Assembly (NCBI GenBank): GCA_044892505.1
Contig: CM097883.1
Span: 380,060,564-380,124,000 of the forward strand
Direction: 5' to 3'
Source of the DNA: Schmidtea nova
Taxonomy: Eukaryota
DNA length: 63,437 nt
Each line of letters opens with the position of its first letter. Positions within the stretch are counted from its first letter, which is position 1. Both the position numbers and the translations under genes were made by a program. Below, one piece after another: positions 1-32,336 of the stretch. A model generated the notes under the pieces. It saw only the letters and a program-made list of their open reading frames with translations, did no database searches and was not told the DNA's origin.

Positions 1-819
1 TACTTATAAAATACTAATTGTAATAAAAAAAAATAATATAAAAAAATAATATTAAATAAAATATTATTACTTATAAAATATTATTAGTAATAAAAATAAT
101 ATTAAATAAAATAATACTTATAAAATAATTATAAAAAAAATTCTTATAAAATAATAATAGTTAAAATAATGATAAAAAAACTATTTAAAACTTTTGAAAA
201 TTGCGCTTAAAATTTACTTTGATTAAACAAAATGACACTAAAATTCAAAAATTGCGAGAAAATATTTAAAATTTAAACAAAAATTTCGCAAAAAAATGTT
301 AAAACAAAAAACGACCTTGACCTCGAAATGACCTTGACCTCGAAACGACCTTGAACTTTGACCTCGATTACGTAACCTCGATGTCATAACTCATGTGCTA
401 TGTAAAAAGCCCGCGAAATATTATGTAATAACGTGTGTGCTATGTAAACCCCGAGAATTATATAATGATTAAGTAATCATATGTACTATGTAAAGTCCGA
501 TCGATTAACTAATATACACACATAGGGGTATTGACGCAGACCTGACATAGCCTCCTACTAAGGATACGAAGAAAAAACGAATCGCTGATCTAATACATTT
601 GTTTGCAAAATATATTTGACTAGCACATCTTATTACGCTCAACAATATTATTGTCTTCACATTAGTAGATATTGTACTGTCACGTATATGACATGATTAT
701 ATAAGTATATTATACAATATCAGTTAGGTCTTGAAGGTAATTTAACCCGATCACTATACTATATTAAATTATTACATAAGTATGTTTGTGTGATGTGTGT
801 TGTTATTGTTCATAGCATT

Positions 820-1221
820 CAGATACTCCTCAAGGAGAGTTTCTCAGTTGTATTATAGTCAATAAATCGTTGATGACTCTAACACATCCAATCCCATATG
901 ATTATAAATTTGAGTACAGAGATAATGTTGAATCTCTACGATGAATGTGACATTACATCTATTACAAGTAAAATGCTTTACAAGATTAGAATTAAGAATA
1001 ATTTATGTCCAAGATTTTTACTGAAAAATAAGTAACTTGTGAGACTTTTAGATTAGTCTAACATTTATAGTTCTAATATTTTTAAGGTGTTTAAAACCTC
1101 TAAAAACGGTAATATCATAGCAGAATCTTCAGAAATGGACAAGGAAATTTCATTATTTCATCAAATATGGTATTACTGCTCCCAGGAAATGCCCCATGGT
1201 TACCATCAGTTGAGCCTGTTA
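820..1221 (+). CDS. Probable exons of the host semaphorin-like gene (Sema domain, N-terminal part)
   Basis: Frames HPIPYDYKF and IFRNG..PWLPSVEPV echo the Sema CPYDP and IYR..WL motifs. The GTAGGC donor at 1222 is in phase with the acceptor at 12662. Confidence 0.5.
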
Positions 1222-1351
1222 GTAGGCAGGGCGTATTGGCAAAGCATCAGTAGGTAGATGTGTGGAGCCGGGAACAAAGACATTATGACTCATGCGTGGG
1301 CGGAAAAAAACAAAGACCCCCCCCCCTCCCCAGGGGGTAGAAAAAATTTTT

Positions 1352-1415
1352 TGATGAGTCATCGATGAGTCATCGATGAGTCATAATTTTTTTTGATGAG
1401 TCATCGATGAGTCAT
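1352..1415. promoter_or_regulatory. Subterminal cluster of TGAGTCA (AP-1/bZIP consensus) in GATGAGTCATC repeats
   Basis: Five copies here, more in the mirror at 12397-12500. The motif match is direct; binding is only inferred. Confidence 0.5.
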
Positions 1416-1426
1416 ACTTTTTTTTC

Positions 1427-2385
1427 AAATTTTTTTTTCGCGCCAAAAACTTTTTTTCAAATTTTTTTTTCGCGCCAAAAAATTTTTTTCAAATTTTTTT
1501 TTCGCGCCAAAATTTTTTTTTCAAATTTTTTTTTCGCGCCAAAATTTTTTTTTCAAATTTTTTTTCGCGCCAAAAACTTTTTTTCAAATTTTTTTTTTCG
1601 CGCCAAAAAAATTTTTTCAAATTTTTTTTTCGCGCTAAAATTTTTTTTTCAAATTTTTTTTTCGCGCCAAAAACTTTTTTTCAAATTTTTTTTTTGCGCC
1701 AAAATTTTTTTTTCAAATTTTTTTTTCGCGATAAAAACTTTTTTTCAAATTTTTTTTTTGCGCCAAAATTTTTTTTTCAAATTTTTTTTTCGCGCCAAAA
1801 AATTTTTTTCAAATTTTTTTTTCGCGCCAAAATTTTTTTTTCAAATTTTTTTTTCGCGCCAAAAACTTTTTTTCAAATTTTTTTTTTCGCGCCAAAAAAA
1901 TTTTTTCAAATTTTTTTTTCGCGCCAAAATTTTTTTTTCAAATTTTTTTTTCGCGCCAAAAACTTTTTTTCAAATTTTTTTTTCGCGCCAAAATTTTTTT
2001 TTCAAATTTTTTTTTCGCGCCAAAAAATTTTTTTCAAATTTTTTTTTCGCGCCAAAATTTTTTTTTCAAATTTTTTTTCGCGCCAAAAACTTTTTTTCAA
2101 ATTTTTTTTTTCGCGCCAAAAAAATTTTTTCAAATTTTTTTTTCGCGCCAAAATTTTTTTTTCAAATTTTTTTTTCGCGCCAAAAACTTTTTTTCAAATT
2201 TTTTTTTTGCGCCAAAATTTTTTTTTCAAATTTTTTTTTCGCGCCAAAAAATTTTTTTCAAATTTTTTTTTCGCGCCAAAATTTTTTTTTCAAATTTTTT
2301 TTCGCGCCAAAAACTTTTTTTCAAATTTTTTTTTCGCGCCAAAATTTTTTTTAAATTTTTTTTTTCGCGCCAAAAAATTTTTTTC
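1427..2385. repeat. Tandem array of about 30-bp units, each containing TTTCGCGCCAAA (E2F-type double site)
   Basis: Unit T(n)CAAAT(n)CGCGCCAAAA repeated about 30 times, read directly from the sequence. Confidence 0.9.
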
Positions 2386-3025
2386 AAATTTTTTTTTTTA
2401 GACAAATTTTTTTAACACAAATTTTTTTTTTAGACAAATTTTTTTAGCCAAATTTTTTTTTAACACAAATTTTTTTTAAGACAAATTTTTTTAACACAAT
2501 TTTTTTTTTAGACAAATTTTTGAAGACATTTTTTTTTAACACAAATTTTTTTTGACAAATTTTTTTTGACAAATTTTTTAAGACATTTTTTTTTTTTCGC
2601 GCCAAAAAATTTTTAAATTTTTTTTTTAGACAAATTTTTTTAGCCAAATTTTTCAAGACAATTTTTTTATAATACAAATTTTTTTTTTAGACAAATTTTT
2701 TTAGCCAAATTTTTTTTTAACACAAATTTTTTTTAAGACAAATTTTTTTAACACAATTTTTTTTTAGACAAATTTTTGAAGACATTTTTTTTTAACACAA
2801 ATTTTTTTTGACAAATTTTTTTTGACATTTTTTTTAACACCAATTATTTTTTTTACAAAAATTTTTTTATTTAAGACAAATTTTTTATAACACAAAATTA
2901 GAGTCATCAAAAATATTTGCAACAGGTGTGCAAACTAAACAAAGACATTGTTGTATGTGTGCATGTTTAATTAATTAGTATTTGTCAAGTATGAAGCTTT
3001 TGCACATCAAAACCATCACAGAAGA

Positions 3026-3109
3026 GGTTCTGCTTCCAGGGTTCTGCTTCCAGGGTTCTGCTTCCAGGGTTCTGCTTCCAGGGTTCTGCTTCCAGGGTTC
3101 TGCTTCCAG
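3026..3109. repeat. 14-bp tandem repeat GGTTCTGCTTCCAG x6
   Basis: Read directly; two copies in the right TIR. Confidence 0.9.
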
Positions 3110-3189
3110 GGTTCTGATCGCAATGTTCTGCTACTAATGTTGTTATTTATTCAATTAATTATTTCACAAATTATTATTTTTCAAACTAA

Positions 3190-3390
3190 AAAAAGACTTT
3201 GCAACACGCGTGCAAGTTAACAAAGACATTGCAACACACGTGCAAGGACTTTGCAACACGCGTGCAACATGAACAAGGACTTTGCAATACACATGCAAAC
3301 TAAACAAGGACTTTGCAACATGCATGCAAACTAAACAAAGACATTGCAACACACATGCAACACTTTGCAACACATGTGCAACATAAACAA
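3190..3390. repeat. Degenerate tandem TTGCAACAC(G/A)-type repeats inside the TIR
   Basis: Repeated TTGCAA cores with AACAAAGAC/AACAAGGAC spacers; mirrored at about 11480-11680. Confidence 0.75.
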
Positions 3391-3415
3391 AGACATTAAA
3401 AAGCCAAAATAAAAT

Positions 3416-3760
3416 TTATTTATAAATATATTGTTGTGTGCGTGTACAAAATTTAGTTTCAAAATTATTTACATCTAAATTATTACTCGGAATATTACTC
3501 ATAGGAATATTATTCATTGTAATATTAGTATTTTTCGGAATATTATTCTTTGGAATATTTGACATCTTCTCCAACCGTATGGATGCCGATAACATCATTA
3601 TAATTATTAATATAAATAAACTTATATAATGTAATACAACTGATGTTTTTTCGTTTTCAACTGTTTGATTTTGGTATCTGACTTCATATTCTTTTTTAAC
3701 AAAGGTTTGATTGATACATTTTAATCGTTCAACTATTTTCATCATTATTTTGTTAATCAT
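3416..3760 (-). CDS. Tandem-duplicated stalk+TM segment with an Asn/Pro-rich cytoplasmic tail
   Basis: The first 58 or so aa are nearly identical to the C-terminal part of 3763-4161; the DNA at about 3590-3760 duplicates about 3765-3950. Confidence 0.55.
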   Translation of the reverse strand: MINKIMMKIVERLKCINQTFVKKEYEVRYQNQTVENEKTSVVLHYISLFILIIIMMLSASIRLEKMSNIPKNNIPKNTNITMNNIPMSNIPSNNLDVNNFETKFCTRTQQYIYK

Positions 3761-3762
3761 TT

Positions 3763-4161
3763 TTATAATAACATCATTATAATTATTAATATAAATAAAC
3801 TTATATAATGTAATACAATTGATGTTTTTTCGTTTTCAACTGTTTGATTTTGGTATCTGACTTCATATTCTTTTTTAACAAAGGTTTGATTGATACACTT
3901 TAATCGTTCAACTATTTTCATCATTATTTTGTTAATCATTTTTTCAATATCATTATTAATCACATTATTTTTGGAAGGACATTGATTACATTGTAATTTT
4001 ATTTGATTGCATTCAATGTTTGAGTAAAGACATATATCGTTATAGCTCGCGCAAGTACTATCTTGTTTTCGAAACGGATGAGATGATTGACAATCTTCCA
4101 AAGCTTGTTCTCCTTCAGTATTGTGAATACATAATAATAAAATAAGTATATTTAATTTCAT
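3763..4161 (-). CDS. Small predicted type I membrane protein, N-terminal part (signal peptide, Cys-rich domain, stalk, TM)
   Basis: Hydrophobic N-terminus MKLNILILLLC, six Cys in about 40 aa, C-terminal hydrophobic stretch VLHYISLFILIIIMMLL. Confidence 0.6.
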   Translation of the reverse strand: MKLNILILLLCIHNTEGEQALEDCQSSHPFRKQDSTCASYNDICLYSNIECNQIKLQCNQCPSKNNVINNDIEKMINKIMMKIVERLKCINQTFVKKEYEVRYQNQTVENEKTSIVLHYISLFILIIIMMLL

Positions 4162-4225
4162 TTTAAAAACAAAAACTAATATAAAAACTAAATTTGTTCA
4201 TACTAAAATATTTATTAAAAAACAA

Positions 4226-4642
4226 TTATGCGTATCTTGCATTGTCAACTCTCCAAATCGGAGTAACAACATCTTTTTTATCAATCTTGTATCCCTGGAT
4301 AATAATGGTAACGAACCAGTGTTCTTGATCCACGAAATCAATAGTTTGAAAAGCATCATGAAACCGAGTTTTTCTGTTATTGATGTACATGGTTTCTTTA
4401 CATGTCAAATTAACAATGATCTTTGAAAATAATCGATTTAATGCGATAATATCTTCCTTGGCAATAATTACAGCAAGACTGTCATATAAAGATTTTGTTA
4501 ACTTTACCGGAAATGATAATCGATACGGTATTTCATTAACCAAAAAATAAATTCTGCTGTCATAGTACATCTGAACTGGTTTTACCTCAGTCTGATATAT
4601 TTTTTCTTCGCTTATATCAAGATTTTGTTTTCGTGATTGCAT
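4226..4642 (-). CDS. Orphan family A protein (138 aa), homologous to 62249-62629
   Basis: Aligns by eye over its length with the 126-aa ORF at 62249 (e.g. IYFLVNEI..PVKL, TMYINNRKTRFHDAFQ vs TIYINNKKTYFHDTFQ). Confidence 0.8.
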   Translation of the reverse strand: MQSRKQNLDISEEKIYQTEVKPVQMYYDSRIYFLVNEIPYRLSFPVKLTKSLYDSLAVIIAKEDIIALNRLFSKIIVNLTCKETMYINNRKTRFHDAFQTIDFVDQEHWFVTIIIQGYKIDKKDVVTPIWRVDNARYA

Positions 4643-4882
4643 GTTGTGACAATATTTTATAAAATGTCTTTGTATTTATACTGATGACTGGATGTCTTTG
4701 TCCAATCATATTCATGCATTTGTTTTGCACACACTATGCACATGTATTGCAATGTCTTTGTTGTATGCGTGCATGTATAATTAATTAGTATGTGTTTAGT
4801 ATGAAGCTTTTGCACATCAAAACCATCACAGAATAGGTTCTGCTTCCAGGGTCCTGCTCCGAATGTCCGGTTACTAATGTCC

Positions 4883-4913
<31 letters not shown>

Positions 4914-5191
4914 TTTTATAATACTACTACTTTCTTTCTGAATAGTATTTAATAAAAAAAAAGTTTTTTAGCTTTTATATACAGTTAATAAAAAACTACT
5001 ACTACTTAAAATGCTTTAATAAAAAACTATTACTATTATTATTTAAATAAAAACTAAAATGAATAAAAAACTTTTATTTAACTAAAATGAAAATTAAAAA
5101 AACTAAAATGAATAAAAAAACTTTTATTCAACAAAAATAATAAAAATGACACAACAAATGACAACAACAACAACAACAACAACAACAACAT

Positions 5192-5746
5192 TCACATGTC
5201 CGATGGTTCACCGCGAAGAGATTGGCAACCATCATTATCATCACTATTATTCTCATCACCATCACAATCTTCTGCCTTTCGATGGCATTGCTTACAATCA
5301 GGAGATTGTGGCGATTCCAAACATTCATTGGATTCATCAGATGGAAACGGACCATCGAGTGTTGGTGCTTCCAAATCTGTTGTTGTTTTTTCATCTGCAT
5401 CAATCGGCTCCGGAGTAGAGTTGGGCCATGTTTCCTTGATATGGTCCTCCTCATCGATTTTGTCCATTTGCCGGACTTCGTATAATTTGAGGGAATTCCT
5501 CAAAACCCAAATGTTGAATTGGCGAATGCGTTCAACACAACTTCCGCATTGATATGCGCACATAATGTGTTCGGGTACCATTGGTAGATCGGTATTCTGG
5601 CTCGTCATGTGGTCCAGGACGATCTGGTTTATATCAATACCAGTCAGGACCATAATTTTATATGGGAACATCTCCGGAGCCGTGTAGACCAGAGCTGGCA
5701 TAAGATTTGGGAACAGTTCCTCCAGCTTCCTATATATTATGTTCAT
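5192..5746 (-). CDS. Orphan family B protein (184 aa, acidic low-complexity tail), homologous to 60412-60717
   Basis: VYTAPEMFPYKI..IDINQIVLDHM..CVERIRQFNIWVLRNSL aligns with IYFAPDIIPFRI..IDFNAVLLDHL..FVDRLKNYHVWILKNEL. Confidence 0.78.
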   Translation of the reverse strand: MNIIYRKLEELFPNLMPALVYTAPEMFPYKIMVLTGIDINQIVLDHMTSQNTDLPMVPEHIMCAYQCGSCVERIRQFNIWVLRNSLKLYEVRQMDKIDEEDHIKETWPNSTPEPIDADEKTTTDLEAPTLDGPFPSDESNECLESPQSPDCKQCHRKAEDCDGDENNSDDNDGCQSLRGEPSDM

Positions 5747-6016
5747 TAACTTTTCTAAATAAAAAAAAAATTAAATTTATTAAATAAATAATTAAAATCC
5801 TTACGGCTTTTAATTACGGTTTGCGTAAGAGACATATTAGTGAATATAAACTATTTGAGATTGTTCATAGTATATATATATATATCAAAGAAACACACAT
5901 GATTTGAAACACATATAATGAACCAATCAGAATCAAGCATGCACAACATGTCTTTATTCTATCGATACACACAGAGCCAATCAGAATCGTGCATTTCTAA
6001 TGCATAGATATTGCAA

Positions 6017-6550
6017 TCATGAGTCACGTGTTAGTATGAAATCAACAAAGGCTTTATCTTCTATAATTGATTTTATATCGTTAATAATATCATCAACTAT
6101 AGTACTATAGTCTTTGTTTTTTAATCCTAATATGACTAATTTCCCACTTGCAAATATATTTACACACATGGGATTATATTTGGTATATCTCAAAGCTGGA
6201 AATAATTCTGGCTCGTAAACACATGGTATTAATTTCGATAATTCATTCAAATTACAAATAAATCCTAAATCCGCAGTTACAGTTATCGATTGTATTGTTA
6301 AATCGTAAAACTCAACTTGTTCGTCACTAATAAATTCCCTGCATCCCATTATTCTATATCTTCCTGTTTTAAAGTATATTATTGGGTATTTCCCACTTCG
6401 ATCTACAATTTGCTGGGGTTTTCCTTTTGGAAATTTCATGTGTGATACATCTGTCTTACCTTTATAATTAATGTTTCTAATCATTACTGAAAATAATTTT
6501 AAAATGAAATAATTACTTTGAGAACTAGTATTTAAAACAAATATAAACAA
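6017..6550 (-). CDS. Divergent TATA-box-binding-protein-like protein (likely true start at Met 6484)
   Basis: C-terminal TBP repeat is clear: IQSITVTADLG..YEPELFPALRY..VNIFASGKLVILGLK (compare TBP YEPELFPGLIY..LIFVSGKIVLTGAK). The N-terminal repeat is degenerate: IRNINYKG..IIYFKTGRYRIMG. Intronless. Confidence 0.9.
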   Translation of the reverse strand: MFIFVLNTSSQSNYFILKLFSVMIRNINYKGKTDVSHMKFPKGKPQQIVDRSGKYPIIYFKTGRYRIMGCREFISDEQVEFYDLTIQSITVTADLGFICNLNELSKLIPCVYEPELFPALRYTKYNPMCVNIFASGKLVILGLKNKDYSTIVDDIINDIKSIIEDKAFVDFILTRDS

Positions 6551-6578
6551 TAATATTAAGAAAATATAATTTTTAAAT

Positions 6579-7202
6579 ATGGAATTAAGAAATGATGCAG
6601 TGTTTCAAATTGTTGGTTCGAGCGGGAGTGGAAAAACTTTATTTGTTTGTAAATTATTGCAATCGAAATTATTCAAATCAAAATTTAATAATATTTATTG
6701 GCATAGGGGTGCTGACGATGAAAGCGGAATGACACAAGATCAGTTTTGTAAAATAAAAATGACAATCATTAAAGGTTTCGATAAAAACTGGTCATCTAGA
6801 TTAAAACAAGGTGATGTGATTATCATTGACGACTTGTATCAAGAAGCAAATAAAGAAAAGGATTTCAATAACTTATTTACGAAAATCAGTAGACATAAAG
6901 GTGTTACTGTTATTTTTATAACTCAGAATTTATTTCATCAGGGCGGTAGTCATCGAACTCGTAATTTAAATGTTCAATATCTTGTTGTGTTTAAAAATCC
7001 TAGAGATGCAACAGTTATTGATTTTCTGGCAAGACAAGCTTATCCTTCTAATCGTAACTTTTTGATTGAAGCCTTTCAAGATGCTACAAAATCTCCTCAT
7101 GGATATATTTTCCTGGATTTTACTCAACAATGCAGTGATGATTTACGAGTTAGAACTGATATTTTTAACCCTGAAGGAGCCATGGTTTATAAACAAAGTT
7201 AA
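6579..7202 (+). CDS. A32/FtsK-HerA-like DNA packaging ATPase of Polinton type
   Basis: Walker A GSSGSGKT, Walker B VIIIDD, downstream ISRH..VTVIFITQNLF and YIFLDF motifs typical of Polinton ATPases; intact 207 aa. Confidence 0.92.
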   Translation: MELRNDAVFQIVGSSGSGKTLFVCKLLQSKLFKSKFNNIYWHRGADDESGMTQDQFCKIKMTIIKGFDKNWSSRLKQGDVIIIDDLYQEANKEKDFNNLFTKISRHKGVTVIFITQNLFHQGGSHRTRNLNVQYLVVFKNPRDATVIDFLARQAYPSNRNFLIEAFQDATKSPHGYIFLDFTQQCSDDLRVRTDIFNPEGAMVYKQS

Positions 7203-7222
7203 ATTGATTTACAGTAATAATA

Positions 7223-7549
7223 ATGTTAATGAAATCTCGAGTAAAGTTTGAGCCATTGATAAAGGCTAGAACAAAGAAAGTGGGAAAGAAAACAAAGAAA
7301 CTATTTACAAAGAAATCTATAAATAAATCAAGAATGAAATTAAAAAAGAAATCAAGATCCAAGAAAATAAATATGGATAATATTCCCAAAAATAATTTGA
7401 AATCTAATGCTAAACAAGTACATCATCGGAGTTTACCATTTTTTAATGCATTACTTAAAGCCCCCTCAGTTAGAAGAATGGGTATTCTTCAATCGTTTCC
7501 TAGTTACGTCATCGATGATTTACTCGCTATTTTAATTAAAGTCGCATGA
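7223..7549 (+). CDS. Basic (Lys-rich) putative core/DNA-binding protein, probably C-truncated
   Basis: Very Lys/Arg-rich N-terminal half. The C-terminal FFNALLKAPSVRRMGIL..VIDDLLAIL resembles, from memory, the small ORF that follows the ATPase in invertebrate Polintons. It ends abruptly where pPolB begins. Confidence 0.5.
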   Translation: MLMKSRVKFEPLIKARTKKVGKKTKKLFTKKSINKSRMKLKKKSRSKKINMDNIPKNNLKSNAKQVHHRSLPFFNALLKAPSVRRMGILQSFPSYVIDDLLAILIKVA

Positions 7550-9758
7550 CGATCACTGCGACCCAACAGCGAGAATTTGATAATAGCACTAATTGCTATT
7601 TATGTAAAAAGCTTTTAAATACGCCTGTTAGGGATCACGACCATTTCACCGGTCTTTATATTGGAGCAGCCTGCTCAGAGTGCAACAAGTCCCGGCAAAT
7701 AAGACACTCTTTGCCCGTTATATTTCACAACTTGAAGGGCTACGATTTACACCACATTTTAAAATACGGCCTTTCAAAATATAACACGTGGAATATAAGT
7801 TGTATTCCCTTGACCAGCGAAAAGTCTTTAAGTCTTTTCGCGTACATCGATAGCCTGACTGTAAAATTTATCGACTCGTATCAGTTTGTAAGTGAGTCTC
7901 TAAATAACGCGGTAAAAACCCTTACTTCGTTACCTTTGACAAACTCGGAATTTCGCGGCACTATAGTCACGGCCAAGGGCATCTTTCAATACGACGCTGC
8001 CACTTCTTTAGAGGTTTTAAAATCTACATTGTGTTTACCACCCAAGTGGAAAGATATAACTGCTGTCGAGTATGCTGCTGCCCATAAAATATGGCAAGAA
8101 ACCTCATGTACATCACTGTACGATTACATGATGGTTTATTTAAAACTAGATGTGTTTTTGTTAGCTGACTATTTTCAGCAATTTCGAATTAAATCTATTA
8201 ATCATAACAGGCTTGAGCCTTTAAATTTTCTCGGAATTCCCGGCATGTCGTGGAGTTCCGCTTTATTAACTCTTGACTCTCCTATCGAGCTCCTCACCGA
8301 TATGGAGATGTATAACTTTTTCGAGGGCGGTATTCGCGGCGGACTTACGTTTGTCAATAAACATTATGTCAAGACGAGCCCGGATACCGCACTATTATAT
8401 ATTGACATAAATAATTTATATGGGTGGGCCTTAAGCCAACCCTTGCCATGTGGTAATTTTGAGTGGGTCACTGATGACCAATTATTAAATGAAATCGTTT
8501 GTCAGTGCTCATCGGAAAATCTCGATACACTTCATTATGGTTACACCATAGAAGTGGATTTGGAAATTCCGGCATCGATTCACGACAAACTGGATGATCT
8601 TCCAGTTGCCGCTGAAAAGATGTGTGCACCGGGATCCAAGGTTGAGAAGCTGTTGCTAACGCATCTTCCAAAGAAGAATTATGTTCTTCATTGGCGGCTT
8701 TTGCAACTATTTATTAAAATTGGTGTGAAGGTAACACACATACATCGCGAAATTAAATATAATCAAGAAAAAATCTTTTTTAATTATATAAACATAAACA
8801 CCAGTTTACGAGCGGCTGCTACTAACAAGCTCGACAAAAATTTTTACAAACTATTAAATAATAGTCTCTACGGCAAAACTGTAGAGAACTTAAAAAAAGA
8901 ATAAATTTAAGACTGTGTAACTCGGCACAAAAACTGCTGACTTACACGTCAAAAGCTAATTTTAAAAAAACTAACAAAATCGACAGTGACCTCATCTCCG
9001 TATTGCTTCAGAAGGAATCAGTATGTTTGGATAGACCCAGCTACATTGGACAAACCGTACTGGATTTATCCAAACTTCGTATGTACCAGCTGCAGTATGA
9101 AGAGTTACAAAAATATCGTAACGACTTCAACTGCGAAATTAACATCGTTGCTGGGGATACTGATTCCTTCTTCTTGGAAATCAAAAATCTGCCTTTGAAC
9201 ACTCTTTTGACCGCCATGATTCGCGATAGGCTTTTGGATACCTCTAATTACGACACTCATCATGCATTGTATAGTAGGACCCTTGATTCTGTGATTGGTA
9301 AATTTAAGGATGAGAATAAGGGTCTACTGTATGATGAGTGGGTTTTCTTAAGACCTAAATGTTATAGTTTGATGGGAGACGAGGCCTGCATGAAAGCCAA
9401 GGGGATCTGTTTAAAAGATGCAGGTCTCACTCATCAGTCTTACCTTGACTGTTTTTTAAACGACAAAATATACAATGTCCCCCAGTTCCGCATTACGAGC
9501 AAAAACCATCAGCTCTTTAGTATAAAAAGTAATAAGAGGGCCTTATCCTGTAGGGATGATAAGAGGAACTGGGTGGAAAAAAATAAAAGTTTTTTGTATG
9601 ACCACTATATGGGGGGTGACACCACTATATTTGTAGGTGATCGAGAGCCGCTTCAACAACAGCAACAACAACAGCTTCAACAACAGCTTCAACAACAACA
9701 ACAACAAGATGACCCCTACGATTTCTATGACCCGACGGCTCGGGATTATTTCGGATGA
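7546..9758 (+). pseudogene. polB: Protein-primed family B DNA polymerase with an endonuclease-VII-like His-Me finger; N-truncated, one frameshift at about 8890-8900
   Basis: CYLC..RDHDHFTG..AACSECN; exonuclease motifs FHNLKGYD, FIDS and YLKLDV; IRGG; motif A DINNLYG; motif B KLLNNSLYGK; motif C GDTDS. ORFs 7546-8904 and 9003-9758 join if one A is added to the A-run near 8890-8897. Confidence 0.93.
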
Positions 9759-11431
9759 TGGCAAGAATGCTGATGACAAGGAGGAGAAAGATGATAAGAA
9801 TGACATGGAAAAAATAAAAACCAAAAAAAAAAAGAAAATCAAAAACCAAAAAGATATGAGAATGAACAATCGGCCCTCTTCAGGGCCACAATTTATGATT
9901 GTATTACAAATAATAAAAAGTTTTAGAAAATTTAGCTCACCGAAAACAGAAAAGAAAACAGAACGCAAAAAAAAAAAAAAAAATAAAAAAATAAAAGATT
10001 GAGAAAACCGAAAACTGAAAGGAAACCAATATTGATAATTAACCGAAAATGAAAAGAAACAAATTATGAAAAGAAACAAATTATGAAAATAAAACGAAAA
10101 TGAAAATAAACCGAAAAGATAAAAGAAAACAGAAAACAGAAAACAGATTGTGCACGAAATAATGGCCCTCTTTAGGGCCAATACATTTTGATTGTAATAA
10201 ATTGCGCAATCAATTAAAACTAATGAATTATTTTTATGTTATTTTTTTATATGTTATTATTTTTACTTTTTTATAAGTTCTTTTTATAAGTTCTTTTTAT
10301 NNNNNNNNNNNNNNNNNNNNNNNNNNNNNNNNNNNNNNNNNNNNNNNNNNNNNNNNNNNNNNNNNNNNNNNNNNNNNNNNNNNNNNNNNNNNNNNNNNNN
10401 NNNNNNNNNNNNNNNNNNNNNNNNNNNNNNNNNNNNNNNNNNNNNNNNNNNNNNNNNNNNNNNNNNNNNNNNNNNNNNNNNNNNNNNNNNNNNNNNNNNN
10501 NNNNNNNNNNNNNNNNNNNNNNNNNNNNNNNNNNNNNNNNNNNNNNNNNNNNNNNNNNNNNNNNNNNNNNNNNNNNNNNNNNNNNNNNNNNNNNNNNNNN
10601 NNNNNNNNNNNNNNNNNNNNNNNNNNNNNNNNNNNNNNNNNNNNNNNNNNNNNNNNNNNNNNNNNNNNNNNNNNNNNNNNNNNNNNNNNNNNNNNNNNNN
10701 NNNNNNNNNNNNNNNNNNNNNNNNNNNNNNNNNNNNNNNNNNNNNNNNNNNNNNNNNNNNNNNNNNNNNNNNNNNNNNNNNNNNTATTACAAGTATTTAT
10801 AATAATTATTATTATAATTATTATTAATATTATCATTAATATTAATATTATTATTACAAGTAATTATAGNNNNNNNNNNNNNNNNNNNNNNNNNNNNNNN
10901 NNNNNNNNNNNNNNNNNNNNNNNNNNNNNNNNNNNNNNNNNNNNNNNNNNNNNNNNNNNNNNNNNNNNNNNNNNNNNNNNNNNNNNNNNNNNNNNNNNNN
11001 NNNNNNNNNNNNNNNNNNNNNNNNNNNNNNNNNNNNNNNNNNNNNNNNNNNNNNNNNNNNNNNNNNNNNNNNNNNNNNNNNNNNNNNNNNNNNNNNNNNN
11101 NNNNNNNNNNNNNNNNNNNNNNNNNNNNNNNNNNNNNNNNNNNNNNNNNNNNNNNNNNNNNNNNNNNNNNNNNNNNNNNNNNNNNNNNNNNNNNNNNNNN
11201 NNNNNNNNNNNNNNNNNNNNNNNNNNNNNNNNNNNNNNNNNNNNNNNNNNNNNNNNNNNNNNNNNNNNNNNNNNNNNNNNNNNNNNNNNNNNNNNNNNNN
11301 NNNNNNNNNNNNNNNNNNNNNNNNNNNNNNNNNNNNNNNNNNNNNNNNNNNNNNNNNNNNNNNNNNNNNNNNNNNNNNNNNNNNNNNNNNNNNNNNNNNN
11401 NNNNNNNNNNNNNNNNNNNNNNNNNNNNNNN

Positions 11432-12597
11432 ACAACAATATATTTATAAATAAATTTTATTTTGGCTTTTTAATGTCTTTGTTTATGTTGCACATGTGTT
11501 GCAAAGTGTTGCATGTGTGTTGCAATGTCTTTGTTTAGTTTGCATGCATGTTGCAAAGTCCTTGTTTAGTTTGCATGTGTATTGCAAAGTCCTTGTTCAT
11601 GTTGCACGCGTGTTGCAAAGTCCTTGCACGTGTGTTGCAATGTCTTTGTTAACTTGCACGCGTGTTGCAAAGTCTTTTTTTAGTTTGAAAAATTATAATT
11701 TGTGAAATAATTAATTGAATAAATAACAACATTAGTAGCAGAACATTGCGATCAGAACCCTGGAAGCAGAACCCTGAAAGCAGAACCTCTTCTGTGATGG
11801 TTTTGATGTGCAAAAGCTTCATACTTGACAAATACTAATTAATTAAACATGCACACATACAACAATGTCTTTGTTTAGTTTGCACACCTGTTGCAAATAT
11901 TTTTGATGACTCTAATTTTGTGTTATAAAAAATTTGTCTTAAATAAAAAAATTTTTGTAAAAAAAATAATTGGTGTTAAAAAAAATGTCAAAAAAAATTT
12001 GTCAAAAAAAATTTGTGTTAAAAAAAAATGTCTTCAAAAATTTGTCTAAAAAAAAATTGTGTTAAAAAAATTTGTCTTAAAAAAAATTTGTGTTAAAAAA
12101 AAATTTGGCTAAAAAAATTTGTCTAAAAAAAAAATTTGTATTATAAAAAAATTGTCTTGAAAAATTTGGCTAAAAAAATTTGTCTAAAAAAAAAATTTAA
12201 AAATTTTTTGGCGCGAAAAAAAAAATTTGAAAAAAAAATTTTGGCGCGAAAAAAAAATTTGAAAAAAATTTTTTGGCGCGAAAAAAAAATTTGAAAAAAA
12301 TTTGTCTAAAAAAAAAAATTTGAAAAAAATTTTTGGCGCGAAAAAAAAATTTGAAAAAAAATTTTTGGCGCGAAAAAAAATTTGAAAAAAAAAGTATGAA
12401 TCATCGATGACTCATCAAAAAAAGTTTGACTCATCGATGACTCATCGATGACTCATCGAAAAAAATTATGACTCATCGATGACTCATCGATGACTTATCA
12501 AAAAAAATTCTACCCCCCGGGGGGGTCTTTGTTCTTTTTTTTCCGGCCACGCATGAGTCATAATGTCTTTGTTCCCGGCTCCTCACATCTACCTACT
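11432..12597. repeat. Right terminal inverted repeat (visible part)
   Basis: Mirror of 1249-3437. About 5 copies of the GGCGCGAAA unit versus about 30 on the left; 2 versus 6 copies of the 14-mer GGTTCTGCTTCCAG. Confidence 0.92.
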
Positions 12598-12662
12598 AGC
12601 ATCCCATTAATAAAATAATTTAGTTAATATAAGAAATAGTTAACGGGGTTTATCTTTTACAG

Positions 12663-13239: not shown

Positions 13240-13246
13240 ATAATTT

Positions 13247-13301
<55 letters not shown>

Positions 13302-13513
13302 TCATAATTATCTTTTTTCACCTTTGATCTTTTCTTATTATTATTATCAATAATTCTCATAATGACTATAGATCAAAATTTTTTTTTATAAACAATAACA
13401 CAATATTTCGGCACAGCCTTTATCAAATACACACTTGATAAAGGCTGTGCCGAAATATTGTGTTATTGTTTATAAAAAAAAATTTTGATCTATAGTCATT
13501 ATGAGAATTATTG

Positions 13514-13605
<92 letters not shown>

Positions 13606-13768
13606 CATATCATAATTATCTTTTTTTCACCTTTGATCTTTTTTATTATTATTATCAATAATTCCCATAATGATGACTATAGATCAAAATTGTTTTTTAT
13701 AAACAATAACACAATATTTCGGCACAGCCTTTATCAAGTGTGTATTTTGATCTATAGTCATCATTATG
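13240..13768. repeat. (AAT)n microsatellite-associated repeat of about 190 bp in inverted/tandem copies, forming a hairpin centred at 13427-13434
   Basis: CAATATTTCGGCACAGCCTTTATCAA-loop-TTGATAAAGGCTGTGCCGAAATATTG, with arms of about 90 bp. Partial copies at about 45270-45327 and 61185-61250. Confidence 0.8.
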
Positions 13769-13931
13769 NNNNNNNNNNNNNNNNNNNNNNNNNNNNNNNN
13801 NNNNNNNNNNNNNNNNNNNNNNNNNNNNNNNNNNNNNNNNNNNNNNNNNNNNNNNNNNNNNNNNNNNNNNNNNNNNNNNNNNNNNNNNNNNNNNNNNNNN
13901 NNNNNNNNNNNNNNNNNNNNNNNNNNNNNNN

Positions 13932-14374
13932 TTTTTGACAAAACGCAACAATGTTTCGAAGATTCTACTATCCAGAACAGCCCTTTCATTGGACAATGTC
14001 TTGAACATTACAAGAGGAGAGTGAGGATCAATCATAAAATTATTGTAAATTGCAAGACCAAACAATCTACCGATCACAGTAAACTGGGTTAAAATGTCAT
14101 CAAATATCATTTTGTTCACCCAGCAGAGTCTTGATTCAGGATACATTTCAAAGAGACCATAATCAAAGAGACCATAACTCTGCAACTGGCTAATGGTATC
14201 ACCTAGCAAATTATCTCTTCGTACAGTAGTATGAGAACTGCTTTGTGCTACGAAGCATGGTAAATCTTCTGACATTAAGCATTGAGCATCAATTTTCATC
14301 GACATAACATCACTATTGCTGTCATTGAAATAACCGTTGTAATGATTCTCTGAATTTCTTCCACATTCGATCAA
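13932..14374 (-). pseudogene. Second, internally deleted copy of the HECT fragment
   Basis: Same peptide as 15016-15639 without the RASQCHLK..VLNP segment. Confidence 0.8.
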
Positions 14375-15581
14375 GAACTAAATAGCCAACTTCCTAAATC
14401 CAAACCGAAACTAAAATTTCACTAATTCCACATCAAAAAATCCAAACTGAATTGATTGGTTTAAACAAATCTAAAATTCAACAATTACTCAAAATTCACT
14501 ATTCTAAAAAATCAATTCAATTCAATCTAAAAAAAACCAAACCCAAGAACTTACCGATTACACTCACACCAAAGGTGAGAAAAGGAACGCGCACACAGAC
14601 GCGATTAAGAAAATTATGAAACCCAAGCGGTAAAAATGCGCACACAGACGCGACACTACAAAAATATGAAATAACACGACAAAAAATAGCCAAAGTTTGC
14701 TCAGGCAAACTTTGGCTGAAACATTTTTTCATGTTGCCTGAACAAACTTTGGCTGTTTTGTTTTTGCTGCATGTATTTTTCAGTTTATAGCGTCTGTGTG
14801 CGCTACCACCAATTGATCAGCGTCTGTGTGCGCATTTTTTAATTGGAGTTATTTTGGATAGGTAAATTTGTAATTTGGAGTTTAATTGATTTTTTAGAAT
14901 AGTGAATTTTGAGTAATTGTTGAATTTTAGATTTGTTTAAACCAATCAATTCAGTTTTGGATTTTTTTTTGATGTGGAATTAGTGAAATTTTAGTTTCGG
15001 TTTGGATTTAGGAAGTTGGCTATTTTGTTCTTGATCGAATGTGGAAGAAATTCAGAGAATCATTACAACGGTTATTTCAATGACAGCAATAGTGATGTTA
15101 TGTCGATGAAAATTGATGCTCAATGCTTAATGTCAGAAGATTTACCATGCTTCGTAGCACAAAGCAGTTCTCATACTACTGTACGAAGAGACAATTTGCT
15201 AGGTGATACCATTAGCCAGTTGCAGCGTGCTTCTCAATGTCACCTTAAAAGGCCATTTAGAGTTAATCTCATTTGTGAAGATGCTTTAGATGAAGGCGGG
15301 GTAATGAAGGAATTGGTCTTGCTTGTTGTGCCTCAAGTTTTAAACCCCGATTATGGTCTCTTTGAAATGTATCCTGAATCAAGGCTTTGCTGGTTGAACA
15401 AAATGATATTTGATGATAATTTACCGCAGTTTAATGCAATCGGTAGATTGTTTGGTCTTGCAATTTACAATAATGTTATGATTGATCTTCACTCTCCTCT
15501 TGTAATGTTCAAAACATTGTCCAATGAAAAGGCTATGCTAGATAATAAAATCCTCGAAACATTGTTGCGTTTTGTCAAAAA
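13932..15581. mobile_element. Foldback (long inverted repeat) carrying a HECT E3 ligase fragment in both arms
   Basis: 13932-14530 is the reverse complement of 14870-15581, with SNPs and a deletion of about 120 bp in the left arm. The centre has smaller palindromes. Confidence 0.75.
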
Positions 15582-15584
15582 CAA

Positions 15585-15616
<32 letters not shown>

Positions 15617-15639
15617 ATAATAATAATATAAAATGGTGA
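15016..15639 (+). pseudogene. HECT-domain N-lobe fragment, HERC3/4-like
   Basis: VRRDNLLGDTISQL..LKRPFRVNLICEDALDEGGVMKEL..LNPDYGLF..GRLFGLAIYN. It lacks the catalytic C-lobe and runs into an (AAT)n tract. Confidence 0.85.
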
Positions 15640-18793: not shown

Positions 18794-21192
18794 CGTGATC
18801 GGATTATTGCCCACACGAAAAATGCCCACACGAAAAATGCCCACACGAAAATTGCCCACAGAAAATTGCCCACAGATAGTATTGCGCACACGATTAATGC
18901 CCACACAGAATAATGCCCACAAGGAAAAATGCCCACATAGACAAATGTCCACATAGAAAAATGCCCACAAGGAAAAATGCCCACATAGAAAAATGCCCAC
19001 ACGAAAAATTATTTTAAATATAAAAATTAAATTAAAATAAATAGAGAAAAAATCAAAAATTATATTCTATCTTGGAGATAATCTATTTGTGAAAATTTGT
19101 GAATATATAAAAAAACAATTATAAGGTATGTAATATTTAAATTCTCTTTTGTTAATATAATATTAAATTGCGTAGTATAGTATTTAAATTTATAGTTTTG
19201 GGAAATACATAGATTGAAAATTTGTGAATATATAAAAAAACAATTATAAGGTATGTAATATTTAAATTCTCTTTTGTTAATATAATACTTTTGATACCAT
19301 AATTTTCTAACGATATTTTTTTAAATATTTTAATAGGTCTGAGAATGGAATATTCTAGTACGCAGAGAGGCAATCGAGTTTTAATTTACTCTGGGTTTGA
19401 GTATATCTATTTCCGTACAACAAATGGAGTTTTGACTTGGAGATGCAGGCAACATCGCATTATAAACTGTCATTCCATCATAAAAACTAAAGATGGCAAT
19501 ATTGTAAATCAACCAACGCAACATTGCCATGAATCATGACCACAAAAAATAGAATGCAATTTAGCAAAGAAAAAAATCCAGGATGAGATGACATCAATTG
19601 GTGCTACTCCTAGAAATGTAATGGGGAGTATTTTATTAGAAGTGAGCAGTGAAGCACTAGCGTTTATGCCGAAAAAAACTTCAATATCACGAAATCTACT
19701 GAATTTTAGAAGAGATAAACATTTACCAGTACCTAAAGATACAAATTTTGAAATTCCAGATAAATACACCGAGCTAGTGCTTCATGATTCAGGTGCAAGT
19801 GATCCAGACAGAATTCTGGTTTTAGGAGATATTTATCTCTTAAAAGAATTAAATAAAGATATAATATTCGGAGATGGAACTTTTGATAAAGTTCCAAGCA
19901 TGTTTTATCAACTTTATACTTGGCATGCTCAGTTGGTAATTCTTATCCACCTTGTAAATATTTTTTGTTAAAAAAACGGAGATACATACAAAAAAATGTT
20001 TGATATATTAAAGAACTTGCTATCAAATTTGGCACCTGAAAGAATATTACTAGATTTTGAGAAAGCAGCGATGAATGCAGCCAGAATTGCATTTCCACAG
20101 ACTGATATGAGAGGCTGTTATTTTCATTTGGCCCAAAGTATAACAAGAAAAATTAGTTCTGTTGGTCTAAAAACTACTTTTGAAAACAACCTGGATATGA
20201 AACTAAAGCTGAAATCATTAGCAGCATTGTCATTTGTGCCTCCATCTGATGTTAGATCAGTATTTACTAAGCTTGCAGCAACTTATTCGGAAGAAGAGAA
20301 TTATAGTGAAATACTGACATATTTTTTTGGCACATATATTGAGGGTGCAGCTGGTAGAAATCCGCTGTTCTCTATTGAATTGTGGATTCATTATGATTCA
20401 GCTTTGGAGAAATCACCGAAAACAACGAATTGCTGTGAGGGATTTCATAATGCATTGAATTCTTTATTCCACTGTAGTCATCCCAGCATTTGGTTTCTAT
20501 TTGATGGATTGCAACGAGATATAGCTTGCCATAGATTGACACTAGCTAACGCAGAAACGGGTCGTCCTGAAATTAAAAATAGGAAATACCAAAAATTAGC
20601 TGATTCGGTATCTACTATTGTGCAACAATATAGTACAACAGAAGATAAAATTGTATACTTAAGAAAGTTGGCTAATTTACAATAAATTTAAAATGTATAT
20701 TTGTATTAAGTAGAAGTAGAATATAATGAATTAAAATTTTTATTTTTTAAAAACAATTTTTTTAATCTCCTTTTCACTATTTTTTTAAACACTGATGTAT
20801 TGTATCGTATAGTAGCAAAGCGATCTTAAGTATTTTAAATATAAAAATGATTTTAAATTGTAAAATTTGTAAATTTATTGTTGATACATTTTAATATTTT
20901 ATTTTAAATCACTTATAGATTATCTCCTAGATAGAATATAATTTTTGATTTTTTCTCTATTTATTTTAATTTAATTTTTATATTTAAAATAATTTTTCGT
21001 GTGGGCATTTTTCTCTGTGGGCATTTTTCCTTGTGGGCATTTTTCTATGTGGGCATTTGTCTATGTGGGCATTTTTCCTTGTGGGCATTATTCTGTGTGG
21101 GCATTAATCGTGTGCGCAATACTATCTGTGGGCAATTTTCTGTGGGCAATTTTCGTGTAGGCATTTTTCGTGTGGGCAATAATCATCGAATC
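18794..21192 (+). mobile_element. Mutator-like (MULE) DNA transposon
   Basis: TIRs of about 300 bp made of GCCCAC repeats. 9-bp TSD CTAAATTCT (18785-18793, 21193-21201). Confidence 0.9.
19345..20685 (+). pseudogene. FLYWCH + MULE transposase, with an in-frame TGA at 19537 and a frameshift at about 19930
   Basis: FLYWCH-like LIYSGFEY..WRC..C..HCH; DGTF; LLDFEKA; GCYFHLAQ; TTNCCEGFHN. Confidence 0.9.
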
Positions 21193-31730: not shown

Positions 31731-32336
31731 TTATTCAAAATATTTAAGGATGTCTTCGTCAGATACGGCAAAATCCATTGTTAAATCGATCTCGGGCACT
31801 TCTTTTGACTGTTGTGCCAATTGCTGAAGCACTTGCTTTTTCCAGCGACGCTGACGCGCGCCCATCTTACTCTTCTTCTTCTTTTTGACTTCTGGATTTG
31901 CAGCGCTTTTTGGTGTGTTTGATGCTGTTATTGCTCGAACCTGAGATGGTTCCTCTGTATTTGTTCCTTTCGAACATCCTGATTTCTCTTCAGCCCAATG
32001 CTGATAGGTAATTGGTCGGATGAGTTGTTTCAACTCTTGATTGAGATAAGAAGCCGTTACCGATTTCAGGCATTTCTTCAACTCCATCTTGGTTGCATCG
32101 AGTTCCATCTTTATTTCGTCGTTTGCTCGCTGGGAGCGTTGATTTTTGATAATTTGCGCCTTCATTTGCTCTGGACTAAACCAGCTCTTCTTTAGATTTG
32201 AAATCATAACATCGGCCTCTTTTATCTTTTCGGATTTTCGCAACATCTCTTTCTCCAGGCTGCGGATAATACGCCATGCCTTGTCCAATTCTGTTTGAGG
32301 AGTTATTGAGTTGAATGACATTTTTCTAGAATTCAA
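31731..32336 (-). CDS. Orphan family C coiled-coil protein with a basic tail (201 aa)
   Basis: Long open frame in more GC-rich DNA; homologous by eye to 55975-56340. Confidence 0.7.
   Translation of the reverse strand: MNSRKMSFNSITPQTELDKAWRIIRSLEKEMLRKSEKIKEADVMISNLKKSWFSPEQMKAQIIKNQRSQRANDEIKMELDATKMELKKCLKSVTASYLNQELKQLIRPITYQHWAEEKSGCSKGTNTEEPSQVRAITASNTPKSAANPEVKKKKKSKMGARQRRWKKQVLQQLAQQSKEVPEIDLTMDFAVSDEDILKYFE

What the first reader, a model, noticed from the sequence alone, without database searches (positions are those of the whole stretch)
1427..2385. TIR built from about 30 tandem copies of a double E2F site
Each unit of about 30 bp carries TTTCGCGCCAAA in a poly(T) context. Known: this 12-mer is the overlapping inverted E2F site of the mammalian DHFR promoter, and TTTCGCGC is the adenovirus E2 promoter E2F site. 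Such a CpG-rich core is striking in very AT-rich DNA. Inference: the array could couple element transcription or replication to S phase, titrate E2F/DREAM, or exclude nucleosomes. The right TIR shows about 5 copies, so the array may expand and contract (or be collapsed in the assembly).
Basis: partly seen in the sequence, partly recalled or inferred. Interest (0 to 1): 0.75.

Follow-up and report, generated by a model that had tools for sequence, protein, structure and literature searches.

The report
E2F-site array in a Maverick end
The repeat is a real block of 30 copies of a cell-cycle (E2F) binding sequence inside the end of a broken virus-like Maverick transposon, and that transposon's polymerase gene is followed by two histone-mRNA-type hairpins, which together hint, without proof, that the element times its copying to the host's DNA-synthesis phase.

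Summary
The array is real: 30 units, period 32 bp (1418-2388), 25 of 30 with the exact DHFR double E2F 12-mer; the right end has 5 units. It is one module (44%) of a TIR of at least 2.19 kb, not the whole TIR. The element (1249-12597, 6-bp TSD) is a defective Maverick/Polinton derivative: broken pPolB, A32 ATPase, SSB-fold gene, TBP-like gene, no integrase or capsid found. The E2F function is unproven. The core-versus-spacer test is inconclusive, a sister element's ends lack the site, no gene starts beside the array, and CDE/CHR spacing is non-canonical. New, independent support for S-phase coupling: two histone-mRNA-type stem-loops lie on the sense strand 3' of pPolB (9872, 10164). One is 16/16 identical to the C. 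elegans histone hairpin; they are the only 2 pattern matches in 63 kb, but score below Rfam's cut-off. Best reading: an expandable host-factor docking array in an adenovirus-ITR-like end (0.45); main rival a neutral minisatellite (0.3). E2F-site amplification by plant MITEs is known; my searches found neither feature reported for Polintons. Host not identified.

The parts
1243..1248 (.). Left copy of 6-bp target-site duplication (AGCATC)
1249..3437 (+). Left TIR (minimum extent), begins AGTAGG
1353..1415 (+). 11-bp-period array of AP-1-type pseudo-palindromes (ATGASTCAT; motif name recalled) in the outer TIR; right counterpart 12396-12509 has more copies
1418..2388 (+). The finding: 30 tandem 32-bp units, each a double E2F site between A/T tracts; the minus strand also reads a CHR-like TTTGAA 8-10 nt after the core
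2389..2896 (+). Second T-tract array (GACAAA/CACAAA units, period 14-17), with one further E2F unit at 2595-2606
3026..3116 (+). 14-bp array (6.5 copies left, about 2.5 right at 11753-11787) inside a cassette also found at 4750-4880 and in the second element at 60919-61122
4226..4642 (-). 138-aa ORF, predicted OB-fold like T7 gp2.5/Enc34/ASFV CP312R proteins: probable single-stranded DNA-binding protein
   Evidence: (Z 7.5-6.6)
5192..5746 (-). 184-aa acidic, CxxC-containing ORF of unknown function; homolog in the second element
6017..6484 (-). 155-aa TBP-like gene
   Evidence: PF00352, E 1.2e-13; 56 hits, top ones 50-72% identical, unnamed
6579..7202 (+). A32-like packaging ATPase
   Evidence: PF04665, E 2.8e-07
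7546..9758 (+). Protein-primed DNA polymerase B, broken: about 500-535 N-terminal residues of full-length relatives are absent and the frame shifts near 8890-8900
9872..9887 (+). Histone-mRNA-type stem-loop 1, 113 nt after the polymerase-frame stop
10164..10179 (+). Histone-mRNA-type stem-loop 2, identical in all 16 positions to the C. elegans histone hairpin printed in PMC1924863
10301..11431 (.). Two assembly gaps (484 and 562 N) that hide the inner edge of the right TIR and any genes there
11432..12597 (-). Right TIR (minimum extent)
12187..12393 (-). Right-end E2F array: 5 units with one GACAAA-type unit interleaved
12598..12603 (.). Right copy of target-site duplication

Best explanation
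The array is a variable-number tandem repeat in the subterminal part of the TIR of a recently inserted, non-autonomous Maverick/Polinton derivative (shown). It grows and shrinks by slippage or unequal exchange, leaving duplicated blocks such as 7 units/224 bp (inferred from the pattern). Its unit is most likely a genuine docking site for host E2F/DP, held in nucleosome-disfavouring A/T tracts at about three helical turns per unit. The TIR would then work like an adenovirus-type end loaded with host-factor sites (inferred). Through it the element, or the intact parent it derives from, would be opened and activated in cycling cells, where nucleotides and repair enzymes are plentiful. It would act as an enhancer or origin-accessory module, not as a core promoter. 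The histone-type hairpins behind pPolB would add a second, RNA-level restriction to S phase via SLBP (inferred). Shown: anatomy, motif identity, left/right copy difference, presence of the hairpins. Not shown: any binding, expression or cell-cycle effect.
For: Exact DHFR double site; 29 of 30 units keep at least one strict site, and 5 of 5 right-end units are intact. By local composition, a given 32-bp unit holds a strict double site with P about 8e-6; the strict 8-mer occurs 0 times in 55,659 non-TIR bases. T/A flanks match the narrow-minor-groove preference of E2F. The array has 3 TpA steps in 971 bp against 92 per kb in the window, and 65% of it lies in AnTm tracts of 10 bp or more against 0.4% outside the element. 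The ends carry other transcription-factor-like motifs. An AP-1-type site near the E1 terminus aligns with a TTACGTAA bZIP-type palindrome in the sister end, and 3 of 3 TTACGTAA in the window fall in known or putative Maverick ends (names recalled). Independent cell-cycle signal: 2 histone hairpins on the sense strand 3' of pPolB, the only 2 exact pattern matches in 63,437 bases, with 0 of 100 shuffles reaching 2. Rfam E-values are 0.003 and 0.012 for the whole window. The two copies agree at 15 of 16 positions (stems 12 of 12), against about 57-70% in their flanks; P 0.002-0.03. Precedent: E2F binds in vivo to sites amplified by Brassicaceae MITEs (PMC5950925, PMC7329337).
Against: One founding event, read against many possible motifs: given a T3-(C/G)6-A3 frame, 4 of 64 cores are strict double sites and 16 of 64 loose ones. 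Core variants are rare (5 of 30 units) while spacer variants are common, but 0 of 4 common variants falling in the core is expected by chance (P 0.19-0.44), and the core is not invariant. The sister element's two ends have 0 E2F sites; a putative third end has 1 loose site (P 0.07) and its homology is not significant (19 of 200 shuffles). There is no E2F-like site in the 4 intergenic regions between or upstream of the genes. SELEX favours GGCGGG over the canonical core. The CDE-CHR spacer is 8-10 nt (28 of 28), not 4. Tandem arrays in TIRs are generic: the MULE at 18808-21178 has 13 and 12 copies of a 16-bp unit. The hairpins score 26.5 and 24.9 bits, below the Rfam cut-off of 34, and AATAAA signals also follow the polymerase frame. 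In plants most TE-borne E2F sites regulate no gene. The paper that review cites for the replication/repair idea is listed as retracted.
Confidence: 0.45

Rival explanations
1. Neutral minisatellite. A T-rich subterminal unit that happens to contain an E2F-like core was amplified by slippage, like the other arrays in this TIR, and does nothing specific.
For: At least five arrays in the same TIR vary in copy number. The sister ends lack the site. The MULE TIRs also carry arrays. The core-vs-spacer test is not significant. The element is defective. No CpG depletion has to be overcome.
Against: An exact double site is unlikely in any one unit (about 8e-6); 0 of 148 TTT-N6-AAA frames outside the TIRs have an all-C/G core. 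It leaves the histone hairpins and the bZIP-type palindromes at homologous positions unexplained.
Confidence: 0.3
2. Structural or element-protein role. The phased A/T tracts exclude nucleosomes or bend the DNA, or serve as iterated sites for an element-encoded protein (integrase, terminal protein-polymerase, packaging ATPase, TBP-like), and the E2F match is incidental.
For: 65% of the array is in long AnTm tracts and TpA is almost absent. The period is about 3 turns and the AP-1 array about 1 turn. The tract after the core keeps a length of 13 in 29 of 30 left units despite four compositions (permutation over 8 types P 0.04).
Against: The constant length can come from single substitutions that move the A/T boundary. 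Single-strand folding is no better than shuffles (z -0.26). The recalled adenovirus packaging A-repeat pattern has 1 hit in the left TIR, against a background of 0.38 per kb. Poly(A/T) alone would not need the 6-bp core.
Confidence: 0.15
3. Repressive or decoy use. The array recruits Rb/DREAM (E2F site plus CHR-like TTTGAA in each unit) to keep the integrated element silent outside S phase, or titrates it.
For: 29 of 30 units keep the junction that reads TTTGAA on the minus strand. DREAM can bind a CHR without a CDE. Hybrid E2F/LIN-54 motifs are conserved in worm, fly and human.
Against: The spacer is 8-10 nt rather than 4. TTTGAA is common here (2.3 per kb). Titration needs a high genomic copy number, which is unknown.
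Confidence: 0.07
4. The 30-versus-5 difference, or the long left array itself, is an assembly artefact.
For: The assembly is gapped (7 N runs) with several odd inverted duplications, and multi-copy TIRs invite chimeric assembly.
Against: The left array holds 10 unit types with a longest exact internal repeat of 137 bp, so it is resolvable by longer reads. The right array has variants and an order absent on the left. This affects the copy number, not the existence of the array.
Confidence: 0.03

Closest known systems
Maverick/Polinton (adintovirus) elements (PMC8097293, PMC10748475, PMC8502044; passages and named sections read)
   Same: TIRs, 6-bp TSD, AGTAG start, pPolB, packaging ATPase; most genomic copies are degraded.
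   Different: 11.3 kb, below the 13-25 kb range. No integrase, capsid or protease found. The TIR (at least 2.19 kb) is longer than the 46-1,447 bp and 100-1,500 bp ranges quoted. It carries TBP-like and SSB-fold genes; TBP is named in the figure legend of MELD viruses with adintovirus-like PolB. No E2F arrays or histone hairpins appear in the passages seen.
E2F-site-amplifying MITEs of Brassicaceae (Henaff et al. 2014, not read; known through PMC5950925 and PMC7329337)
   Same: A DNA transposon carries and multiplies one E2F motif variant; binding in vivo is reported; a role in replication or repair is proposed rather than gene regulation.
   Different: Plant non-autonomous cut-and-paste elements with no polymerase. 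Here the carrier is a self-synthesising, virus-like element in an AT-rich genome, and the sites are in the TIR.
DHFR promoter overlapping E2F sites
   Same: Identical 12-mer.
   Different: One copy at a transcription start in a mammalian promoter, against 30 tandem copies downstream of the element's genes.
Adenovirus ITR, E1A enhancer and E2 promoter (recalled, not checked by a call)
   Same: Protein-primed linear genome whose ends carry host-factor sites; E2F controls the polymerase/SSB module.
   Different: Adenovirus has a few single sites and forces S phase through an Rb-binding protein. Here the only LxCxE, in the SSB-fold ORF, is absent from 28 of 28 distant relatives.
Replication-dependent histone mRNA 3' stem-loop (Rfam RF00032; PMC1924863)
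   Same: 6-bp stem and 4-nt loop; copy 2 is 16/16 identical to the C. elegans hairpin; sense strand, 3' of a coding region.
   Different: It follows a DNA polymerase gene, not a histone gene; it scores below the gathering threshold; there are two copies 292 nt apart; the downstream element is not a recognised HDE.

Membership tests
Maverick/Polinton (intact) | Terminal inverted repeats | tested here: met
   1249-3437 vs 12597-11432; inner part 792 identities, 4 mismatches
Maverick/Polinton (intact) | 5-8 bp target-site duplication | tested here: met
   6 of 6 bases identical on both sides
Maverick/Polinton (intact) | End motif (AGT)2 or (AG)3 | tested here: inconclusive
   Both ends read AGTAGG, 5 of 6; the quoted motifs are for vertebrate elements
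Maverick/Polinton (intact) | Protein-primed DNA polymerase B | tested here: met
   PF03175, E 5e-27, but truncated and frameshifted
Maverick/Polinton (intact) | Packaging ATPase | tested here: met
   PF04665, E 2.8e-07
Maverick/Polinton (intact) | Retroviral-type integrase | tested here: not met
   0 of 15 element ORFs or frames scanned hit an integrase family (10, 5); 1,046 N bases unseen. Hence filed only as a defective derivative.
Maverick/Polinton (intact) | Major/minor capsid proteins and maturation protease | tested here: inconclusive
   No Pfam hit in the same 15 sequences; capsids are often missed by Pfam; gaps remain
Maverick/Polinton (intact) | Length 13-25 kb | tested here: not met
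   11,349 bp including estimated gaps
Functional E2F/DP site | Matches the canonical TTTSSCGC consensus | tested here: met
   25 of 30 units on both strands, 29 of 30 on at least one
Functional E2F/DP site | A/T flanks of 3-5 bp | tested here: met
   30 of 30 units have T8+ before and A4+ after the core
Functional E2F/DP site | SELEX-preferred core GGCGGG | tested here: not met
   The core reads GGCGCG on the minus strand
Functional E2F/DP site | Conserved above its surroundings | tested here: inconclusive
   P 0.19-0.44 within the array; absent from sister ends; no other family copies available
Functional E2F/DP site | Bound by E2F/DP in vivo; host encodes E2F/DP | not testable with these tools
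   Host not identified; no binding data
CDE/CHR tandem element | CHR TTTGAA downstream of a GC-rich CDE | tested here: met
   28 minus-strand core-A(n)-TTTGAA arrangements
CDE/CHR tandem element | 4-nt spacer | tested here: not met
   Spacer 9 nt in 22, 8 in 3 and 10 in 3 of 28
Histone 3' stem-loop (RF00032) | 16-nt hairpin, 6-bp stem, 4-nt pyrimidine-rich loop | tested here: met
   Both copies fold so; copy 2 identical to the C. elegans hairpin
Histone 3' stem-loop (RF00032) | Rfam gathering score 34 bits | tested here: not met
   26.5 and 24.9 bits
Histone 3' stem-loop (RF00032) | Downstream element for U7-type processing | tested here: inconclusive
   Both copies share an 8-nt word about 9-10 nt downstream (7 of 300 shuffles score as well); host U7 unknown
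Histone 3' stem-loop (RF00032) | mRNA ends at the hairpin and binds SLBP | not testable with these tools
   Needs RNA data

The most novel reading that the evidence does not exclude
A lineage of TBP-encoding Mavericks has no means of forcing S phase and instead eavesdrops on the host cell cycle at two levels. An expandable E2F/DREAM array in the TIR works as a tunable dial for activation in cycling (stem or germ) cells. The DNA polymerase mRNA ends in a histone stem-loop, making it a non-histone message processed, translated and destroyed by the SLBP pathway, and lacking a poly(A) tail.
Probability: 0.25. Interest if true: 0.9.

Novelty: new variant of a known kind. Interest (0 to 1): 0.62.

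Why it matters
How and when Mavericks/Polintons replicate is an open question; virions had not been observed as of PMC8097293 (abstract start). A TIR packed with E2F sites gives a direct, cheap test of cell-cycle-gated activation. Histone genes are described as the only genes known to make mRNAs ending in this hairpin without poly(A) (PMC1924863), so a viral-type polymerase message using it would be a real exception and a new way for a mobile element to exploit host S-phase machinery. If the array is neutral, the finding reduces to an ordinary TIR minisatellite.

Tried and rejected
ORF 1407-2354 over the array (315 aa) is a translation of the repeat and was not treated as a gene. Single-strand hairpin role: z -0.26, 39 of 100 shuffles fold as well (only 1418-1740 was folded). 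Canonical CDE/CHR: spacer wrong. Drosophila-type DRE (recalled motif): 0 in the five ends, 1 elsewhere. Rb-binding 'Oncoid' gene: one LxCxE in the element's six frames (segments of 60 aa or more), in the SSB-fold ORF and also in the sister element's copy, but in 0 of 28 distant relatives; rejected. The Atlas gave no usable hit for ORF 4226 and only sub-0.9 leads for ORF 5192. Related DNA: 0 relatives among 23 pattern-matching stretches in genome contigs, 0 matches to a two-unit array pattern there, no match in phages; these are prokaryotic collections, so the blanks say little. Viral and metagenome contigs stayed unchecked, so family-wide conservation of the core and of the hairpins is untested. 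Host identification failed: cluster names could not be obtained, the best named pPolB hits are corals at only 39%, and the HECT fragment gave 1 unnamed hit. The recalled C. elegans EFL-1 consensus could not be confirmed in PMC3093354 or PMC4053757 and is not used. Putative third end at 559: alignment to the second element not significant (19 of 200 shuffles). Rfam miRNA hits (mir-31-like at 13386-13475 and others) fall on local inverted duplications, below threshold; disregarded. With one mismatch allowed, the hairpin pattern is not above chance (4 hits; 13 of 100 shuffles reach 4); only the exact pattern is.

Full report
OBSERVATION. The 12-mer TTTCGCGCCAAA occurs 31 times in the 63,437-base window: 25 times in 1436-2374, once at 2595 and 5 times on the minus strand at 12207-12375. 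None of 100 dinucleotide shuffles held one. Parsing gives 30 units at 1418-2388 with mean length 32.0; core-to-core spacing is 32 in 22 of 29 intervals. The core is exact in 25 of 30 units, and 29 of 30 keep a strict TTTSSCGC site on at least one strand. The 12-mer is the DHFR pair of overlapping E2F sites (passages of PMC3526358 and PMC2784457). The adenovirus E2 attribution is recalled, not checked. Two corrections: the array is 971 of at least 2,189 bp of the left TIR (44%), and the window is not CpG-depleted (o/e 0.98), so a CpG-rich core needs no escape from methylation decay.

THE ELEMENT. It spans 1249-12597, both ends read AGTAGG inward, and the six flanking bases are identical on both sides. 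It encodes a protein-primed polymerase B (PF03175, E 5e-27), an A32-like ATPase (E 2.8e-07) and a TBP-like protein (E 1.2e-13). A 138-aa protein folds with pLDDT 91.8, and its best matches are ASFV CP312R, DUF2815, Enc34 SSB and T7 gp2.5 (Z 7.5, 7.3, 6.8, 6.6; rmsd 2.7-4.2). These Z values are middling, but the top rows agree on one fold class, and Foldseek adds 36 viral matches at E 0.001 or better. The polymerase lacks the first 500-535 residues of three full-length relatives and shifts frame near 8890-8900. No integrase, capsid or protease family was hit by 15 element ORFs or frames; 1,046 N bases are unseen. It is therefore a defective Maverick/Polinton derivative, not an intact member. 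It is young or homogenised: the inner TIR copies have 792 identities and 4 mismatches. Left-arm genes run toward the left TIR and the polymerase toward the right, so both arrays lie downstream of the recognised genes. The host is an AT-rich (31% GC) eukaryote, probably an invertebrate (inference from transposon content, unnamed relatives and coral hits); it was not identified.

ARRAY DYNAMICS. The left array has 10 unit types with duplicated blocks; the longest exact internal repeat is 137 bp at period 224, i.e. 7 units. The right end has 5 units, an interleaved GACAAA-type unit and tract variants absent on the left. The AP-1-type and 14-bp arrays also differ between ends. This fits real expansion and contraction better than simple collapse, though the gapped assembly leaves the true numbers open.

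IS THE CORE UNDER SELECTION? Column counts show 5 of 30 units changed in the core, each variant in 1-3 units, while three spacer columns carry common variants. That is the direction selection would give, but it is not significant (P 0.19-0.44). The tract after the core stays 13 bp in 29 of 30 left units (P 0.04 over 8 types), which boundary-shifting substitutions can explain without selection. A strict double site is rare by composition (8e-6 per 32-bp unit; 0 strict sites in 55,659 non-TIR bases). It is, however, a single event judged after the fact, and within an all-C/G core 4 of 64 would qualify. The T/A flanks suit E2F binding, but SELEX prefers GGCGGG to the canonical core (PMC4686757 passages). 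Each unit also reads a CHR-like TTTGAA on the minus strand, 8-10 nt from the core instead of the canonical 4. No E2F-like site lies in the 4 intergenic regions between or upstream of the genes.

SISTER ENDS. A second element (48355-63058) has a homologous end (0 of 200 shuffles score as well) but 0 E2F sites. It carries AGGTCA repeats and a TTACGTAA palindrome where element 1 has an AP-1-type site (motif names recalled, and the list of 21 motifs was partly chosen after looking). A further end at 23492 is homologous and lies near five AP-1-type sites. A putative end at 559 has one loose E2F site (P 0.07), but its homology is not significant (19 of 200). So arrays of factor-like motifs are general to these ends, while E2F is specific to this family. 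A MULE in the same window also has tandem arrays in its TIRs, a reminder that such arrays are common.

INDEPENDENT SIGNAL. Rfam finds two Histone3 matches on the plus strand behind the polymerase, at 9867-9911 and 10159-10204. They score 26.5 and 24.9 bits, below the 34-bit cut-off; E-values are 0.003 and 0.012 for the whole window, and they are 2 of 12 rows at E 1 or better, the others being sub-threshold miRNA or snoRNA rows. They are the only 2 exact matches to a recalled degenerate hairpin pattern, and 0 of 100 shuffles reach 2; with one mismatch the count is not above chance. Both fold as a 6-bp stem with a 4-nt loop. The second is identical in 16 of 16 positions to the C. elegans histone hairpin in Table 1 of PMC1924863. 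The two are old duplicates: 15 of 16 identical in the hairpin, about 57-70% in the flanks; P 0.002-0.03. They count as one origin plus retention. AATAAA signals are also present, no histone-like frame was found nearby, and no RNA evidence exists.

MECHANISM. Most likely (0.45): the TIR is a modular host-factor platform. E2F/DP binds the phased sites in nucleosome-poor A/T tracts (3 TpA in 971 bp; 65% in long tracts) and opens or activates the element in cycling cells; copy number drifts; SLBP acting on the hairpins limits polymerase synthesis to S phase. Anatomy and motifs are shown; every functional step is inferred. Rivals: neutral minisatellite (0.3), structural or element-protein array (0.15), DREAM silencer or decoy (0.07), assembly artefact (0.03).

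WHAT IS KNOWN. E2F sites amplified by Brassicaceae MITEs and bound in vivo are described in PMC5950925 (passages) and PMC7329337 (passages and section 7). The primary paper (Henaff 2014) was not read, and the study that review cites for a replication/repair role is listed as retracted. Maverick features come from passages of PMC8097293, PMC10748475 and PMC8502044 (passages and section 3 parts 2-3 of 5). Passages only were seen of PMC4686757, PMC4176359, PMC1924863, PMC3093354, PMC4053757, PMC8532177 and PMC10954484; the last two show Polintons and stem-loop histone mRNAs in planarians but do not identify this host. No supplements were read; the gene maps and ITR annotations in the supplements of PMC8502044 may bear on the novelty of the TBP gene and the ends. 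Searches for prior reports: Polinton + E2F gave 3 papers, none on topic by listing; E2F site + transposon + tandem + minisatellite gave 0; histone stem-loop combinations gave 17 and 1 papers, none on topic by listing; Polinton/TBP and Polinton/TIR/tandem repeat were seen as listings. The library lacks most subscription journals, so absence is provisional.

VERDICT. Real feature, partly misdescribed; interpretation plausible but unproven. New variant of a known kind. Interest 0.62: the array alone would rate about 0.4, and the histone hairpins behind the polymerase raise it because they point the same way and are directly testable. Boldest reading: two-level S-phase gating, probability 0.25, interest 0.9.

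Noticed in passing
window 9872-9887 and 10164-10179 (+): Two histone-mRNA-type stem-loops behind the pPolB gene; old duplicates whose stems are fully conserved; loop starts with C as in C. elegans. Probably deserves its own finding.
   Followed up: yes
window 6017-6484 (-): Short TBP-like gene with a family of about 40 similarly short unnamed relatives. Two pairs of TBP-like and pPolB hits list the same longest-contig length (16,321: P0017/P0058; 22,064: P0022/P0074), hinting at linkage in relatives; not verified.
   Followed up: partly
window 48355-63058: Second Maverick-related element: homologous end, SSB-fold ORF inside both repeats, arrays of AGGTCA instead of E2F, and a Ty3/Gypsy inserted (50203-54557). 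The inversion extends about 140 bp beyond the end motif, and 63201-63437 mirrors 44865-45101, so it may be an inverted duplication or misassembly, not a clean insertion.
   Followed up: partly
window 23492 and 23850-24110: Another Maverick-like end motif, and a cluster of five AP-1-type sites with AACAAAGAC words like those at the element 1 terminus; no partner end with a TSD found up to 35000.
   Followed up: partly
window 1-559: Possible right end of a further element (CTACT end, AGGTCA repeats, TTACGTAA, one loose E2F site at 411); homology not significant.
   Followed up: partly
window 2940-3140, 4750-4916, 11705-11888, 60919-61122: A conserved cassette of about 100 bp upstream of minus-strand ORFs in both elements and inside the TIR; candidate element promoter; no Rfam hit at these positions.
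   Followed up: no
window 18808-21178: MULE with TIRs containing 13 and 12 tandem copies of a 16-bp unit.
   Followed up: no
window 13246-15639: HECT ligase fragments in inverted duplicate with local palindromes; pseudogene or assembly artefact.
   Followed up: no
window 3589-3958: 179-bp tandem duplication at 96% in an ORF of unknown function next to the left TIR.
   Followed up: no
window 1087-1248: The left flank is an open reading stretch up to the TSD, so the element may interrupt a host exon.
   Followed up: no
window 26701-28772 and 45772-47804: Two hAT transposases.
   Followed up: no
window 31731-32321 and 55975-56340 (-): Two unannotated ORFs that look related by eye, possibly accessory genes of LTR elements; not tested.
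   Followed up: no
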